64,000 nucleotides of DNA from an uncultured Gemmatimonadales bacterium (GTDB lineage: Bacteria; Gemmatimonadota; Gemmatimonadetes; Longimicrobiales; RSA9). The stretch lies in the NCBI GenBank assembly GCA_963798845.1, contig CAWCUS010000005.1, forward strand, positions 32,001 to 96,000, given 5' to 3'. The position numbers and the translations under genes were made by a program. This document shows, piece by piece, positions 7,773 through 57,411 of this stretch (positions within the stretch are counted from its first letter, which is position 1; each line of letters begins with the position of its first letter). The notes under the pieces are model-generated. The model ran no database searches. It saw only the letters and a program-made list of their open reading frames with translations, and was not told the DNA's origin.

Positions 7773-9094
7773 GTCGCGCCCTCCCATCCGTCGCCGTGGT
7801 CGGCCGTCCCAACGTGGGCAAGTCCACGCTGTTCAACCGCGTCGTGGGGCGGCGTCAGGCCATCGTGGACGATACCCCCGGCGTGACGCGGGATCGGAAC
7901 TTCGCACGCGCGGAATGGGTTGGCCGGGAGTTCTACATCGTGGACACCGGCGGGCTGGAAGTCGACGTGGACGAGCCGCTGGCGATCGCGATCCGGCGCC
8001 AGGTGGAGGCCGCGCTCGAGGAGGCCCAGGTGATCGCGTTCGTCGTGGACGCCAAGGCGGGCGTGCAGCCGCTGGACCGGAAGATCGCCGACCTGCTCCG
8101 GCGCACGGAGGTCCCCGTGGTCCTGGTGGTGAACAAGGCCGACTCGCTCCCCGAGGACCTGTCGCACCTGGAGTTCTGGGAGCTGGGGATCGGCGAGCCG
8201 CATCCGGTGAGCGCGCTTTCGGGGAAGGGGTCCGGCGACGTACTGGACGTGCTGGTCGGGCACTTCCCCGAGGGAGAGCAGACCCCCGAAGACGTCCTCT
8301 CGGTCGCGGTCATCGGCAAGCCGAACGTGGGGAAGTCGAGCTTCATCAACCGGCTCCTCGGCGAGGAGCGGCTGGTGGTGAGCGAGGTCGCCGGTACCAC
8401 CCGCGACAGCATCGACACGCCCATGCGGTATCACGGCCGAACGCTGATGTTCGTGGACACCGCCGGGCTCCGCCGCCAGGCCAGGATCCACGAAAGCCTG
8501 GAGTACTACAGCGCGCTCCGTACCGAGCAGGCGGTCGAGCGTGCCGACATCTGCCTCCTCCTCCTGGACGGAACCGAGCCGGCTCACGTCCAGGACCTCA
8601 AGATCGCGGAGAAGGCCTGGGAAGCCGGCTGCGGACTGGTGCTCGTCGTCAACAAATGGGACCTGGTGGAGAAGGACACCCGCACCGCTGCCGCGTTCGA
8701 GAAACAGCTGCAGGAGCGTGCACCGTCCCTGCGGTGGGTGCCCATGGTGTTCACCTCCGCGCTCACCGGCCAGAGAGTGCAGCGCACCCTCGATCTCATC
8801 CTGCAGGTCGCCGACGAGCGGGCCCGCCGGGTCTCCACCTCGGAAGTCAACGACGCCGTGCGCGAACTGGCGGCCCGGCAGCCGCCGGGTCATTTTCGAG
8901 GCCAGGCCATCAAGCTGCTCTACGCCACCCAGGGCGGCGTGAATCCGCCGACGTTCGTGGTCTTCGTGAACAACCGCAACGGCGTGACGGACAATTACCA
9001 GCGGTACCTGTACAACGGCTTCCGGAATCGGTGGGGGTTCCTGGGCTCACCGCTGCGCATCAAGCTGCGCAGCCGCCGTGAGGCGGAACGGTGA
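7769..9094 (+). CDS. der: Ribosome biogenesis GTPase Der (EngA)
   Basis: Two G domains (GRPNVGKS/DTGG/NKAD and GKPNVGKS/DTAG/NKWD) plus KH-like C-terminus. Confidence 0.97.
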   Translation: MSRALPSVAVVGRPNVGKSTLFNRVVGRRQAIVDDTPGVTRDRNFARAEWVGREFYIVDTGGLEVDVDEPLAIAIRRQVEAALEEAQVIAFVVDAKAGVQPLDRKIADLLRRTEVPVVLVVNKADSLPEDLSHLEFWELGIGEPHPVSALSGKGSGDVLDVLVGHFPEGEQTPEDVLSVAVIGKPNVGKSSFINRLLGEERLVVSEVAGTTRDSIDTPMRYHGRTLMFVDTAGLRRQARIHESLEYYSALRTEQAVERADICLLLLDGTEPAHVQDLKIAEKAWEAGCGLVLVVNKWDLVEKDTRTAAAFEKQLQERAPSLRWVPMVFTSALTGQRVQRTLDLILQVADERARRVSTSEVNDAVRELAARQPPGHFRGQAIKLLYATQGGVNPPTFVVFVNNRNGVTDNYQRYLYNGFRNRWGFLGSPLRIKLRSRREAER

Positions 9095-9693
9095 CCTGGC
9101 TGCTGCTCGTTGCGTCCTACCTGCTCGGGGCGACGCCCACCAGCTATGTGGTGGGGCGCCTGGGCTATGGTGTGGATCTACGTGAAGTTGGAAGCGGTAA
9201 CCTGGGAGCTACCAACACTTTCCGCGTCCTTGGATGGAAGGCTGCGCTCCCCGTGATGGTCATGGACGTGGGCAAGGGCTGGGTGCCCACTGCGCTGTTC
9301 CACCGCTGGGACGCGGCGGCGCCGGAATGGGCGCTAGCGTACGGGGCGGCGGCGATCGTGGGGCACGTGTACTCGCTGTACGTCGGGTTCAGGGGCGGCA
9401 AGGGTGTGGCGACGAGCGCCGGGGTGTTCCTGGCGCTGGCGCCCTGGGCGGTGCTGATCGGGTTCGTGGTCTGGGTGATCACGGTGGCGCTGACGCGCAT
9501 CGTCTCGCTGGGCTCGCTCCTGGCGGCCGTGGTGCTGCCGATCGCCGTGTACGTCACGAACGAGCCCATGGTGGTGCGGTGGCTGTCTGTGGCGCTGTCG
9601 GCATTCGTGATCTACGCTCACCGGGCCAACATCCGGCGACTGCTGAGCGGGCAGGAGAACCGGTTCGGACGGAGCACAGAGGAAGCGTCATGA
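9091..9693 (+). CDS. plsY: Glycerol-3-phosphate acyltransferase PlsY
   Basis: GSGNLGATN, FRGGKGVAT, HRANIRRL motifs; membrane protein. Confidence 0.96.
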   Translation: MTWLLLVASYLLGATPTSYVVGRLGYGVDLREVGSGNLGATNTFRVLGWKAALPVMVMDVGKGWVPTALFHRWDAAAPEWALAYGAAAIVGHVYSLYVGFRGGKGVATSAGVFLALAPWAVLIGFVVWVITVALTRIVSLGSLLAAVVLPIAVYVTNEPMVVRWLSVALSAFVIYAHRANIRRLLSGQENRFGRSTEEAS

Positions 9694-54934: not shown

Positions 54935-56635
54935 TCAGCGCGGCAGCGATGCGGGCTCTGGCCCGGGCTGCTGCTCGGAACGCTGCGGCCGGCCGTCGCC
55001 CGACGCGGACACGCCGGCGTCACGCCGCCGTTTCGCGGCGGCGATGAACGCGGCGAAGAGCGGGTGCGGGCGCATGGGCCGGGACTTGAGCTCCGGGTGG
55101 AACTGGCACCCGAGGAACCAGGGGTGGTCGGGGAGCTCCAGGATCTCCACCAGGTTGCCGTCGGGCGACAGGCCGCTGAAAACCATTCCGTGCTCGGCCA
55201 GCAACTCGCGGTAGTTGTTGTTCACCTCGTAGCGGTGCCGGTGGCGCTCGCTGATGTCCAGCGTCCCGTACGCGGCCTCCGCCCGGCTCCCCTCCCGCAG
55301 ACGACAGGGGTACGCGCCCAGCCGCATGGTCCCGCCCATGTCCGTGACCTGTCGCTGCGAGTCCATGAGGCAGATCACCGGGTCGGACGCTTCGGTCAGG
55401 AACTCCACCGAATGCGACTCGGTCAGGCCGCACGCGTTGCGCGCGTACTCGATCACGGCGCACTGCAGGCCGAGGCAGATTCCGAAGAACGGCAGCTCGT
55501 GCGTCCGCGCGTACTTGATCACCTGGAGCATCCCCTCGATTCCGCGCTCGCCGAAGCCGCCCGGAATGAGAAGCCCGTCGTAGCCCGCCAGCCATTCCGG
55601 CGACTCGCCGTTCTCGAAATCCTCGCTGGAGCGCCAGTCGATCTGGACCCCCACGTGGCTGGCGATGCCACCGTGCACGAGCGCCTCCTGGATCGACTTG
55701 TAGGCGTCCACGAGCGCCGTGTACTTGCCGACCACCGCGATCTTCACCCGTCCCTCCCCGGGCGCCCGGATCTCCTCCACCATGGCCGACCACGGGTCCA
55801 GGTCCGGCTGCCGGGGATCGAGCCCCAGCCGCTCCACGGCCAGATCGTCCAGCTTCTGGCGGTGGAACGCCAGCGGCACCCCGTAGATCGTGTCCACGTC
55901 CCGGGCTTCGATCACCCCGGCCACGTCCACGTTGGTGAAGAGGGCGATCTTGCGTTTCAGGTCGCCTCCGAGCGGCCGTTCCGTGCGACAGATCAGGATG
56001 TCCGGCTGGATCCCGATCTCCATGAGCTCCCGCACCGAGTGCTGCGTGGGCTTGGTCTTCAGCTCGCCCGCGGCCGACAGGAACGGGATCAGCGTCAGGT
56101 GGATGAAGAGCGTGTGCTCACGACCCACGTCCTGGCGGAACTGTCGGATCGCTTCCATGAACGGGAGAGACTCCATGTCCCCCACCGTCCCGCCGATCTC
56201 CGTGATCACCACGTCGTGGTTCGGCGCCAGACGCCGGATCGCCGTCTTGATCTCGTCGGTTATGTGCGGGATCACCTGCACCGTGGCCCCGAGAAAATCG
56301 CCACGGCGCTCCTTCGTGATCACGTCCCGGTAGATGCGGCCGGTCGTGATGTTGTTGGCCTGGGAGAGGCTCTCGTCGATGAAGCGCTCGTAGTGGCCGA
56401 GGTCCAGGTCCGTCTCCGCGCCGTCGTCGGTGACGAAGACCTCGCCGTGCTGGAACGGCGACAGCGTCCCCGGATCCACGTTGATGTACGGGTCGAACTT
56501 CTGGATCGTCACCCTTAGCCCCCGCTCCACCAGCAGGCGCCCGAGCGAAGCGGCGGCGATTCCCTTCCCGAGGGAAGAAACTACGCCGCCCGTGATGAAG
56601 ATGTACTTCGTCGGCTGACGATTCTGCTCGCTCAT
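54935..56635 (-). CDS. pyrG: CTP synthase
   Basis: [38 protein letters not shown]. Confidence 0.98.
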
Positions 56636-57411
56636 TCTCTCTCTACCCCGCTCGTTTCTCCCGCGTCCACCGCCAGGCGCTCGGCCGCCCGCCTCGCGTC
56701 GTCCGGGGTGTCGATCCCACCTTCCGCAGCCGCCACCACGGTCACGCCGATGCGCAGCCCCGCGGCCAGGGCACGCAACTGCTCGAGGCGCTCCGTTCGT
56801 TCCAGGTCGCCGGGGGCGAGCGCCACCCACTGCAGGAGGGCCTCGGGCGTGTACGTGTAGACCCCAATATGCCGCAGAAAACGGTCAGACGCGAGTTCCG
56901 CCGGCGACGGGTCGCGGCCCCGGACGTAAGGGATCGGAGCCCGGGAGAAATACAACGCAGCGCCCTGGTCGTTCCGCACCACCTTGACGACGTTGGGGTC
57001 CCTCCACGCGTCCAGCGAACGCAGCGGCGCCGCCACGGTGCCGATGTCCCAGCCGTCCAGGACGGCGCGAACCGCGCCGGCGACCTGGTCCTCTCCGACA
57101 AAGGGCTCGTCGCCCTGAATGTTGACTATGACGTCAAACGACCTGAACGACTCCATGGCTGCTACTTCCGCGACCCGGTCAGTGCCCGACTCGTGCGCCG
57201 CTGACGTCAGGATGGCCTCCGCTCCGAAGCGCTCGCACGCCGCCACCACCTCGGGGCTGTCCGTTGCCACCACGAGGCGGTCGAGCGGCCGGAACGGGCG
57301 GACTCTACGCCAGACCCACTCGATGAGGGGGCGGCCGGCGATCGGGTGAAGGGGCTTGCGCGGGAGTCGTTCGGATCCGAGGCGAGCGGGGATCACGCCG
57401 AGGACGCTCAC
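56632..57411 (-). CDS. kdsB: CMP-KDO synthetase
   Basis: [42 protein letters not shown]. Confidence 0.96.

What the first reader, a model, noticed from the sequence alone, without database searches (positions are those of the whole stretch)
8300..57400. Quasi-periodic (~8-11 kb) local C-rich to G-rich skew flips centred on short AT-richer patches
Seen: on the + strand, composition repeatedly changes from C-rich to G-rich near 9.2, 17.6, 27.15, 37.2 and 46.25 kb, and more weakly near 2.85 and 57.1 kb. Hand counts on selected 60-nt lines: 16621 has C31/G15 versus 18061 G32/C10; 46081 has C30/G11 versus 46501 G30/C13. At 9.2, 17.6, 37.2 and 46.25 kb the coding strand is the same on both sides, so gene direction does not explain it, and synonymous codons appear to shift from C-ending to G-ending. 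The flips coincide with AT-richer patches, some inside plsY, the DPM1-like gene and kdsB. Inference: these are regularly spaced sites from which a directional, strand-asymmetric process or selection radiates (for example nucleoid domain anchors, translocase or SMC loading, or replication restart). I know of no standard description of this pattern. The counted lines were chosen by eye.
Basis: partly seen in the sequence, partly recalled or inferred. Interest (0 to 1): 0.8.

Follow-up and report, generated by a model that had tools for sequence, protein, structure and literature searches.

The report
Promoter-anchored silent-site GC-skew sawtooth
In this uncultured Gemmatimonadota bacterium the freely variable codon positions switch sharply from C-rich to G-rich at AT-rich gaps between genes and then drift back, which most likely records the direction of RNA polymerase traffic rather than evenly spaced chromosome anchors.

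Summary
The flips are real. All 4 hand-counted lines are exact.

Genome-wide there are 128 sharp upward jumps against 6 downward, and none in codon-shuffled genomes. Raw GC skew without gene calls gives 122 up, 14 down.

The 8-11 kb periodicity is not supported: spacing is near-exponential and there is no autocorrelation peak.

The AT-patch link holds for intergenic patches (t=14.4 after controlling for gap length). It does not hold for patches deep inside genes.

Operons run from G-rich first genes to C-rich last genes. Ribosomal and EF-Tu genes are G-rich. The skew continues across convergent junctions and downstream of the rRNA operon.

It is strong in the same genus, weaker in two other genomes of the family, and absent or reversed in two sister families.

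Best reading (about 0.5): silent sites record net transcription direction. There is no RNA evidence, and the chemistry is not simple C-to-T deamination.

The parts
8938..9339 (.). C-to-G flip at the der/plsY junction. The genes overlap at 9091-9094 and there is an AT-richer patch near 9205 inside plsY. G/(G+C) at four-fold sites goes from 0.51 to 0.75.
   Evidence: Change-point support interval, dlnL 17.9; AT patch; genes
16361..17500 (+). Strongly C3-rich gene (coding four-fold skew -0.57) with no Pfam family, lying directly upstream of the strongest flip.
   Evidence: The strand call is supported by the codon position 1/2 likelihood. The G001 orthologue has -0.42.
17473..17796 (.). Strongest flip in the window, in the 263-bp gap upstream of ccmA. 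G/(G+C) goes from 0.21 to 0.82.
   Evidence: dlnL 101.8; jump size 1.35
17764..24467 (+). ccm operon and following genes. Coding skew declines +0.74, +0.54, +0.39, +0.47, +0.32, +0.29, +0.07, +0.07.
   Evidence: The same decline is seen in G001.
26903..27282 (.). Weak flip at a divergent gene pair (25358-27157 on -, 27244-28173 on +).
   Evidence: dlnL 7.7
28142..35359 (.). Continuous decline of + strand silent skew from about +0.4 to -0.48. It runs through tamB (-), an Omp85 gene (-) and then a + strand gene, so it crosses both a gene border and a strand switch.
   Evidence: 400-bp bins
35266..35805 (.). Flip in a 343-bp convergent gap (34595-35359 on +, 35703-36350 on -).
   Evidence: dlnL 16.2; jump 0.68
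36809..37079 (.). Flip at the junction of two - strand genes (36347-36958 and 36965-37696). The AT patch at 37165 lies about 90 nt outside the interval.
   Evidence: dlnL 18.8
37773..45143 (+). Run of + strand genes whose coding skew declines +0.44, +0.19, +0.06, +0.06, +0.01, -0.24.
46135..46403 (.). Flip in the 166-bp gap between two - strand glycosyltransferase genes. The gap holds the most AT-rich patch of the window (60% AT near 46268). G/(G+C) goes from 0.30 to 0.68.
   Evidence: dlnL 33.1. Conserved in G001, -0.31 beside +0.25.
57022..57325 (.). Flip inside kdsB (56632-57411, - strand), around an AT-richer patch at 57128.
   Evidence: dlnL 17.7

Best explanation
The + strand G-versus-C balance at silent and non-coding sites tracks the long-term net direction of RNA polymerase traffic. 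Whichever strand is more often the non-template strand becomes G-rich. Transcription starts at points, namely AT-rich promoter patches in intergenic gaps, apparently firing in both directions. It ends diffusely, because no intrinsic terminators are detectable. So the skew jumps up sharply at promoters and declines gradually, giving a sawtooth with almost no sharp downward steps.

Genes whose coding strand is C-rich would be those crossed mainly by antisense or read-through polymerases.

Shown: the pattern itself, its anchoring at AT-rich intergenic patches, the operon gradient, the carry-over across convergent junctions, its conservation and its lineage limits.

Inferred: that transcription is the directional process, and that the patches are bidirectional promoters.

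Unknown: whether the G<->C exchange arises from a transcription-coupled mutation or repair bias or from selection on RNA.
For: (1) Polarity asymmetry. There are 128 up and 6 down jumps at >=0.8, and 65 against 0 at >=1.0. Raw skew without gene calls gives 122 against 14.

(2) Location. Of 162 up-jumps >=0.7, the junction classes are -+ 62, ++ 52, -- 38 and +- 10. The median gap is 247 bp against 29 bp for all co-directional junctions. Jump size depends on the AT-richness of the gap (t=14.4), not on its length (t=0.4).

(3) Operon gradient. The first gene is about +0.19 and the last about 0 to -0.07, for every operon size. The gradient is continuous inside long genes.

(4) Presumed highly expressed genes are G-rich: EF-Tu +0.67, rpoA +0.67, S4 +0.75. 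Within the co-transcribed S10 operon the skew still falls from +0.49 to -0.14.

(5) Carry-over. A strongly G-rich gene's skew continues into its convergent partner at +0.19, +0.12, +0.11, +0.12, +0.06, 0.00 over 2.4 kb (n=73). For convergent pairs under 100 bp apart, the detrended + strand correlation is r=+0.38.

(6) Six opposite-strand genes downstream of the rRNA operon are C3-rich, -0.17 to -0.57. The effect is weaker at the syntenic loci of G001 and G013 and absent in G019.

(7) Non-coding flanks carry the same sign (rho 0.30 and 0.26). All eight codon boxes shift together. The force therefore acts on nucleotides, not on tRNA choice.

(8) Terminator-like hairpins number 13 against 17.4 expected from shuffles over 60 kb of the window.

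(9) Persistence. Orthologue skew correlates at r=0.80 with G001, although only 0.567 of four-fold sites are identical against 0.433 expected by chance. With G013 r=0.47, with 0.480 against 0.424.
Against: There are no expression data. No transcription start, antisense RNA or read-through has been seen, and no RNA run is listed.

The classic chemistry does not fit. Between C-rich and G-rich gene classes, G/C changes about 11-fold, but (T/C)/(A/G) at two-fold sites changes only about 1.6-fold, and GC4 stays at 0.91. C-to-T deamination of the non-template strand therefore cannot be the main driver.

Across co-directional gaps over 200 bp the upstream and downstream genes are uncorrelated (r=+0.11 and -0.02; -0.15 after detrending). 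That is only weak support for promoters of varying strength acting on both sides.

A C-shift at operon ends also occurs at boundaries without an AT patch (coefficient -0.15, t=-9.6), which a termination-signal model explains as well.

The distance-to-anchor models explain only about 12-15% of gene-level variance.

The window flips at 9.2 and 57.1 kb may lie inside genes or tight operons.

Upstream of the rRNA operon, strong C-richness is seen in only 2 of 5 family-f1 operons examined.

Three of the rRNA-downstream loci are orthologous and so are not independent.
Confidence: 0.5

Rival explanations
1. Selection on RNA composition for Rho-dependent termination. Operon starts and highly expressed genes are kept G-rich and C-poor so that Rho cannot load. 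Operon ends, and any RNA running toward a promoter, are kept C-rich and G-poor so that Rho stops them. This would insulate promoters from incoming polymerases.
For: The last 600 bp of operon-final long genes are C-shifted (-0.07 and -0.09 before co-directional gaps, -0.02 and -0.04 before convergent partners). Gene ends inside operons stay at +0.09 to +0.12. Non-AT operon boundaries still give a downstream C-shift (t=-9.6). Rho is present, with two paralogues in most of the 31 genomes searched. No enrichment of intrinsic terminators is seen. The effect is confined to silent and non-coding sites, with amino-acid positions barely moved. That Rho prefers C-rich, G-poor RNA is recalled knowledge, not tested here.
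Against: The scale is kilobases, not the roughly 80-100 nt of a Rho loading site (recalled figure). A whole 6-kb operon downstream of the rRNA genes is C-rich on its own mRNA, which would invite premature termination. The skew of a strong gene continues smoothly into its convergent partner, and that looks like spill-over rather than design. Rho is equally present in the sister families that lack the pattern.
Confidence: 0.22
2. Translational codon adaptation. G-ending codons are optimal in this lineage, so highly expressed and operon-first genes use them, and the spatial pattern simply mirrors expression level.
For: Ribosomal protein, EF-Tu, EF-G and RNA polymerase genes are G3-rich. G-ending four-fold codons can be read by two tRNA species (CNN and UNN), both present for all eight boxes.
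Against: Non-coding flanks share the skew. The skew changes continuously inside single genes and within the equimolar S10 operon. Genes as low as -0.85 lie well below any plausible unselected baseline. The skew follows the DNA strand across convergent junctions.
Confidence: 0.08
3. One reading: AT-rich patches are structural chromosome sites (nucleoid-protein anchors, SMC or translocase loading, or replication restart sites) from which a non-transcriptional strand-asymmetric process spreads.
For: The profile is bipolar, origin-like and independent of gene orientation. AT-rich intergenic patches are the anchors. The skew crosses strand switches.
Against: There is no regular spacing. Patches deep inside genes have no effect (331 patches). 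The signal scales with operon position and presumed expression. I know of no mechanism by which such loading would rewrite G against C.
Confidence: 0.07
4. Relics of rearrangement or horizontal transfer: segments that were inverted or imported keep the replication skew of their former context.
For: Replication-scale skew exists, at about +-0.1-0.2 per 50 kb. Local skew reversals have been read this way in the literature (PMC6220195, seen only as a search listing and abstract).
Against: Random inversions would give equal numbers of up and down jumps, but 128 against 6 are observed. Gene skew is conserved across species whose silent sites are largely randomised. The flips sit at the same orthologous junctions in G001.
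Confidence: 0.03

Closest known systems
Transcription-associated strand asymmetry in bacteria (excess of G and T on the non-template strand, attributed to cytosine deamination; Francino and Ochman, Beletskii and Bhagwat; recalled, not read here)
   Same: The coding strand of presumably highly transcribed genes is G-rich. A weak T>A skew goes with it (TA4 from -0.02 to +0.16). The effect also acts on non-coding flanks.
   Different: The magnitude is far larger, with G:C up to about 5:1 in the most skewed gene class. It is a G<->C exchange at constant GC4, without the C-to-T signature at two-fold sites. It is bipolar around promoters, carries over into neighbouring genes, and is restricted to one family.
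Skew N-domains of mammalian genomes (sharp upward skew jumps at replication initiation zones, linear decline between them; PMC3320577 seen only as a search listing)
   Same: A sawtooth shape with sharp upward jumps only and gradual declines. The shape is unchanged by reverse-complementing.
   Different: The scale is kilobases instead of megabases. The jumps sit at promoter-type gaps of a bacterial chromosome, and replication origins every 10-20 kb are not plausible there. Spacing is near-exponential.
Promoter-proximal GC skew at eukaryotic CpG-island promoters, linked to R-loops (PMC3787257, seen as a search listing and abstract)
   Same: Positive GC skew on the non-template strand just downstream of transcription starts, decaying over 1-2 kb.
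   Different: This is a bacterium with coding sequence throughout, so the skew is written into synonymous sites. The opposite skew lies upstream inside the preceding gene. R-loops were not tested.
[quoted passage not shown]
   Same: Intense nucleotide skew imposed on coding sequence by recoding silent positions.
   Different: GRINS are repeated elements associated with gene conversion. No repeat family lies at any flip in this window. The skewed genes here are ordinary single-copy housekeeping genes.
Selection on nucleotide cost in transcribed sequence (PMC4844684; passages read)
   Same: It also analyses GC skew at four-fold sites of sense strands, separately from replication.
   Different: That work reports that C is favoured over G in 71.5% of 1,550 prokaryotes, more so at high expression. 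Here G rises with presumed expression. No position-in-operon or promoter-centred pattern appears in the passages I read.

Membership tests
Transcription-associated (deamination-type) strand asymmetry | Non-template (coding) strand G>C, increasing with transcription level | tested here: inconclusive
   Met only by proxy. Ribosomal, EF-Tu and rpoA genes are at +0.3 to +0.75 against a genome mean of +0.07, and operon-first genes exceed operon-last genes. No expression data exist.
Transcription-associated (deamination-type) strand asymmetry | C-to-T signature: T rises as C falls, so a TA skew of similar size and lower GC at silent sites | tested here: not met
   GC4 stays between 0.895 and 0.912 across gene classes. 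The two-fold-site (T/C)/(A/G) ratio changes 1.6-fold against 11-fold for G/C.
Transcription-associated (deamination-type) strand asymmetry | Acts on transcribed non-coding DNA as well | tested here: met
   The 100 bp upstream and downstream of genes share the sign of the gene's silent skew (rho 0.30, p=1e-22; rho 0.26, p=8e-15).
Replication-origin-type skew (N-domain-like) | Sharp upward jumps and gradual declines | tested here: met
   128 up against 6 down. The skewness of adjacent-gene differences is +1.20.
Replication-origin-type skew (N-domain-like) | Jumps coincide with replication initiation sites | not testable with these tools
   No replication profiling is available. 234 sites at >=0.6 in 4.26 Mb is implausible for a bacterial chromosome.
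   CV is 0.92-0.93 after subtracting the minimum spacing, there is no excess at 8-11 kb, and there is no autocorrelation peak.
GRINS | The skewed tract is a repeated sequence family | tested here: not met
   A repeat search of the whole window found only a Gly-rich tandem repeat at 14.8 kb and chance pairs, none at a flip.
Rho loading (rut) sites | C-rich, G-poor RNA before transcript ends | tested here: inconclusive
   The last 600 bp of operon-final genes are C-shifted on average. The tracts are kilobase-long, and transcript ends are unknown.
Rho loading (rut) sites | Rho factor present | tested here: met
   The Rho RNA-binding domain was found in 31 of 31 genomes, mostly in two copies. The tally includes the unpublished genomes G016, G017 and G020.
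Inversion or transfer relics | Up and down jumps equally frequent, and the pattern decays between species | tested here: not met
   128 against 6. Orthologue correlation is r=0.80 and 0.47 despite near-randomised silent sites.

The most novel reading that the evidence does not exclude
One family of Gemmatimonadota has a transcription-coupled process that exchanges G and C, not the usual C-to-T. It is strong enough to write the long-term net direction of RNA polymerase traffic into silent sites. The DNA sequence alone would then map promoters, bidirectional firing, read-through and antisense transcription in organisms that have never been cultured. The process itself, a repair or mutation bias, would be undescribed.
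Probability: 0.3. Interest if true: 0.8.

Novelty: new variant of a known kind. Interest (0 to 1): 0.6.

Why it matters
If the reading holds, promoter positions, operon limits, leaky termination and antisense transcription could be read directly from genome sequence in an uncultured lineage.

It would also show that a transcription-linked force can dominate silent-site composition in a bacterium, with gene-level excess SD 0.22 against replication-scale skews of about 0.1-0.2. The base-exchange type (G<->C at constant GC) does not fit the textbook deamination model.

The sharp limit to one family, with absence or reversal in sister families of equal GC content, offers a natural comparison for finding the responsible gene or property.

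It is also a practical caution. In such genomes local GC-skew reversals should not be read as inversions or origins.

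Tried and rejected
(1) RNA evidence. The look-up of sequencing runs listed no RNA holder, only 3 DNA runs with small shares.

(2) Gene-content differences between family f1 (pattern present) and f2/f3 (absent). 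Rho 31 of 31, Mfd TRCF domain 29 of 31 (missing in G002 at 91% and G016 at 75% completeness), RNase HI 31 of 31, Fpg 31 of 31. None separates the families. These tallies include the unpublished genomes G016, G017 and G020.

(3) Motif search. Hexamers enriched upstream of G3-rich first genes only reflect G-richness, and no specific motif emerged.

(4) Sigma-70-type consensus scan over 60 kb of the window found 4 sites against 2.3 expected. Only the one at 2824-2853 lies near a claimed flip.

(5) Rfam found only a tRNA-Arg at 13886-13959, so no RNA gene explains the gaps at the flips.

(6) My first strand classification of up-jumps, by the strand of the two flanking sites, was misleading (93 ++, 64 --, 4 -+). 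I replaced it with assignment to the nearest gene junction.

(7) One search contained a sign error for - strand genes in the gene-level statistics. Its jump counts stand, but its gene-level numbers are void and were recomputed.

(8) Literature. Seven searches found no description of a promoter-anchored or operon-position sawtooth of silent-site GC skew in bacteria. The library lacks most subscription journals.

(9) Periodicity was rejected.

(10) Wrong-strand gene calls as the cause of C3-rich genes were rejected. The position-1/2 likelihood favours the called strand for 41 of 41 genes below -0.5 and 148 of 148 between -0.5 and -0.3.

(11) Substitution spectra between G000 and G001 were not attempted, because silent sites are too diverged (identity 0.567 against 0.433 by chance).

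Full report
WHAT THE WINDOW IS. The window is G000:C5:32001-96000 of a 4.26-Mb, 6-contig, 70% GC assembly. The nearest named records are Gemmatimonadota MAGs labelled Longimicrobiales, at 85% identity for CTP synthase. A codon-likelihood gene caller that I wrote gave 58 whole genes in the window, and 52 of them have a Pfam family at E<=1e-5. Genes lie on the + strand to 24.5 kb, are mixed to 37.7 kb, are on + from 37.8 to 45.1 kb, and on - from 45.1 kb onward.

THE OBSERVATION. I measured G against C only at four-fold degenerate third positions. This removes amino-acid composition, and orienting by gene removes gene strand.

Gene-level coding-strand skew has mean +0.07 and SD 0.24 over 3275 genes. 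The binomial SD is 0.069 and the excess SD is 0.216.

In the window, co-directional runs decline steadily:
- 9091-17500: +0.44, +0.46, +0.32, +0.07, +0.19, +0.03, +0.19, -0.10, +0.09, -0.13, -0.57.
- 17764-24467: +0.74 down to +0.07.
- 37773-45143: +0.44 down to -0.24.

Likelihood change points place the flips at 8938-9339, 17473-17796, 35266-35805, 36809-37079, 46135-46403 and 57022-57325. A weak one lies at 26903-27282, and none was recovered at 2.85 kb.

C3-rich genes are not wrong-strand calls. The likelihood from codon positions 1 and 2 alone favours the called strand as strongly for them as for all other genes. Three of them (36965-37696, 46343-47359, 35703-36350) have Pfam hits on the called strand.

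GENOME-WIDE SHAPE. I compared the 150 G/C four-fold sites on either side of every position.
- Upward jumps (C-rich to G-rich on +) of >=0.6, >=0.8 and >=1.0 number 234, 128 and 65.
- Downward jumps number 57, 6 and 0.
- Adjacent-gene differences of + strand skew are 56.0% negative with skewness +1.20 (3362 pairs). The same holds within ++ pairs (1.16) and -- pairs (1.24).
- This polarity is unchanged by reverse-complementing, so it is a physical property and not a coordinate artefact.
- Shuffling synonymous codons across the genome leaves 0 jumps >=0.6 in 3 of 3 replicates. Shuffling within genes keeps about 60% (70-82 up and 1-3 down at >=0.8).
- Plain GC skew without any gene calls gives 122 up and 14 down at >=0.3 (all).

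NOT PERIODIC. Spacings of up-jumps have CV 0.81-0.86, or 0.92-0.93 after subtracting the minimum detectable spacing. The 8-11 kb class holds 8-12% of spacings against 9-13% expected from an exponential. The detrended autocorrelation of 500-bp bins has no peak up to 40 kb. The apparent regularity in the window also depended on overlooking the 35.5 kb flip.

WHERE THE JUMPS ARE. Up-jumps lie a median 44.5 bp from a gene boundary, against 286 bp for random four-fold sites. Assigned to junctions, the 162 jumps >=0.7 are 62 divergent, 52 ++, 38 -- and 10 convergent. Their median gap is 247 bp against 29 bp for all co-directional junctions.

Junctions with a 60-nt patch of >=45% AT have a mean jump of +0.27 to +0.45 in every co-directional or divergent class and gap-size bin. 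Those whose richest patch is below 40% AT have about 0 to +0.10. In a regression the AT term has t=14.4 and ln(gap) has t=0.4. AT-rich patches deep inside genes (n=331) show no flip on average.

In the window, 3 of 13 AT patches fall inside flip intervals, which together cover about 3.9% of the window. That gives an expectation of about 0.5 (my arithmetic).

THE PROFILE IS BIPOLAR AND FOLLOWS THE DNA STRAND. Beyond the +-0.8 kb used for selection, the + strand is still -0.20 and -0.26 at -1.25 kb and +0.26 and +0.23 at +1.25 kb, in ++ and -- contexts alike. It fades by about 3 kb.

I regressed coding skew of 3263 genes on distance to the nearest AT-patch anchor. An anchor upstream gives +0.32 (t=15.5) and an anchor downstream gives -0.41 (t=-14.8). 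R2 is 0.12, against 0.06 for all operon boundaries. Boundaries without an AT patch have smaller effects, +0.08 and -0.15.

Across convergent junctions the + strand skew is continuous (detrended r=+0.38). Across divergent gaps it is anticorrelated (r=-0.25). A strongly G-rich gene's skew carries into its convergent partner, from +0.19 decaying to 0.00 over 2.4 kb (n=73).

LINK TO TRANSCRIPTION UNITS. In predicted operons of every size the first gene averages about +0.19 and the last about 0 to -0.07. Adjacent genes less than 10 bp apart correlate at r=0.63. The gradient is continuous inside long genes, and the last 600 bp of operon-final genes are C-shifted.

Ribosomal protein, EF-Tu, EF-G, rpoB and rpoA genes are G-rich. 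Within the S10 operon the skew still falls from +0.49 to -0.14, which argues against protein abundance as the variable.

Six - strand genes just downstream of the + strand rRNA operon are C-rich on their own coding strand, -0.57 to -0.17. The syntenic genes in G001 (P +0.40 to -0.07) and G013 (+0.17 to -0.05) show this more weakly, and G019 does not. Those three loci are orthologous and not independent.

Terminator-like hairpins are not enriched, 13 found against 17.4 expected. This fits diffuse termination and the lack of sharp downward steps.

NATURE OF THE FORCE.
- GC4 is constant (0.895-0.912) while G4:C4 moves from 0.22:0.69 to 0.75:0.15. TA skew moves only from -0.02 to +0.16, and codon positions 1 and 2 barely move.
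- All eight four-fold boxes shift in parallel. At two-fold sites T/(C+T) goes only from 0.090 to 0.107 and A/(A+G) from 0.126 to 0.099.
- If excess C-to-T on one strand drove the skew, two-fold sites should show about the same 11-fold change as G/C. They show about 1.6-fold (my arithmetic). Simple deamination is therefore excluded as the main cause.
- Non-coding flanks share the sign, which argues against tRNA-based selection.
- Whether the G<->C exchange is a transversion or repair bias or selection on RNA remains open.

CONSERVATION AND TAXONOMIC RANGE. Orthologue coding skew correlates at r=0.80 with G001 (same genus, 228 pairs), 0.47 with G013 (same family, 203 pairs) and 0.05 with G019 (sister family, 135 pairs). 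Four-fold sites are only 0.567 identical against 0.433 by chance in G001, and 0.480 against 0.424 in G013. The force is therefore persistent and not inherited sequence. The window's flips recur at the same junctions in G001.

Per 400 kb:

| Genome (family) | Up/down >=0.8 | Skewness of adjacent-gene differences | Operon first vs last gene |
|---|---|---|---|
| G000 (three samples) | 11/1, 16/1, 11/0 | 1.16-1.28 | +0.12 to +0.18 vs -0.01 to -0.03 |
| G001 (f1, same genus) | 10/0 | 1.02 | +0.115 vs -0.04, p=1e-4 |
| G013 (f1) | 4/0 | 0.72 | +0.059 vs -0.069, p=1e-4 |
| G015 (f1) | 0/0 (2/0 at >=0.6) | 0.55 | +0.076 vs +0.021, p=0.01 |
| G019 (f2) | 0/2 | -0.27 | n.s. |
| G021 (f2) | 3/5 | -0.20 | n.s. 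|
| Three species of genus g22 (f3) | 0/0 | -0.32 | +0.063 vs +0.13, p=0.002 (reversed) |

These relatives have the same GC content, so the pattern is neither a general high-GC property nor a pipeline artefact. None of these skew analyses used the unpublished genomes G016, G017 or G020. Those enter only the presence tallies.

VERDICT. The sites are promoter-type intergenic gaps, and the most economical process is transcription, including read-through and antisense (confidence about 0.5). Rho-related selection is the main rival.

I found no description of this pattern in seven literature searches. Earlier notes of this scan report comparable local skew flips in other genomes, so the scan has seen related things before on other DNA.

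Noticed in passing
window 20423-22430: ccmF is split. ORF 20423-21862 matches CcmF_C profile positions 1-113, and an overlapping ORF in another frame (21711-22430) matches positions 126-321. Relatives have one open frame of about 670-680 aa. This is a frameshift, either a real pseudogene or an assembly error.
   Followed up: partly
G000:C2:418456-424318 (outside the window): Six - strand genes directly downstream of the + strand 23S rRNA gene are all C3-rich on their coding strand (-0.57 to -0.17). It looks as if rRNA read-through dominates the region.
   Followed up: yes
L219 (G010:C33, last 2 kb before the 16S gene): Two co-directional genes just upstream of the rRNA operon are extremely C3-rich (P -0.59 and -0.73). 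This is the same bipolar pattern at what should be the strongest promoter.
   Followed up: partly
all 31 genomes of the order searched: Most genomes carry two matches to the Rho RNA-binding domain, one strong (about 120 bits) and one weaker (about 70 bits). This suggests a conserved second Rho paralogue. The tally includes the unpublished genomes G016, G017 and G020.
   Followed up: no
window 9175-9240 (inside plsY): In a genome with 91% G/C at four-fold sites, this stretch uses a run of A/T-ending codons (cta, cgt, gaa, gtt, gga, ggt, gga, gct, act, ctt, gga). Its cause is unknown; an internal promoter is one possibility.
   Followed up: no
window 14807-14927: A tandem 9-nt-based repeat encodes a Gly/Phe-rich tail at the end of the TPM-domain protein gene (14140-14937).
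   Followed up: no
window 48327-48413: ARAGORN calls a tRNA-Asn on the + strand inside the - strand rpoN gene. Rfam does not confirm it at the gathering threshold, so it is probably a false positive.
   Followed up: partly
G021 (f2) and genus g22 (f3), 400 kb samples: The sister families may have the opposite polarity. G021 has 14 down against 10 up jumps at >=0.6. In g22, operon-last genes are more G-rich than operon-first genes (+0.13 against +0.063, p=0.002).
   Followed up: no
window 16361-17500, 57413-58963, 25358-27157: Three sizeable conserved genes have no Pfam family at E<=1e-5. The third has only weak TPR hits at E about 1e-3.
   Followed up: partly
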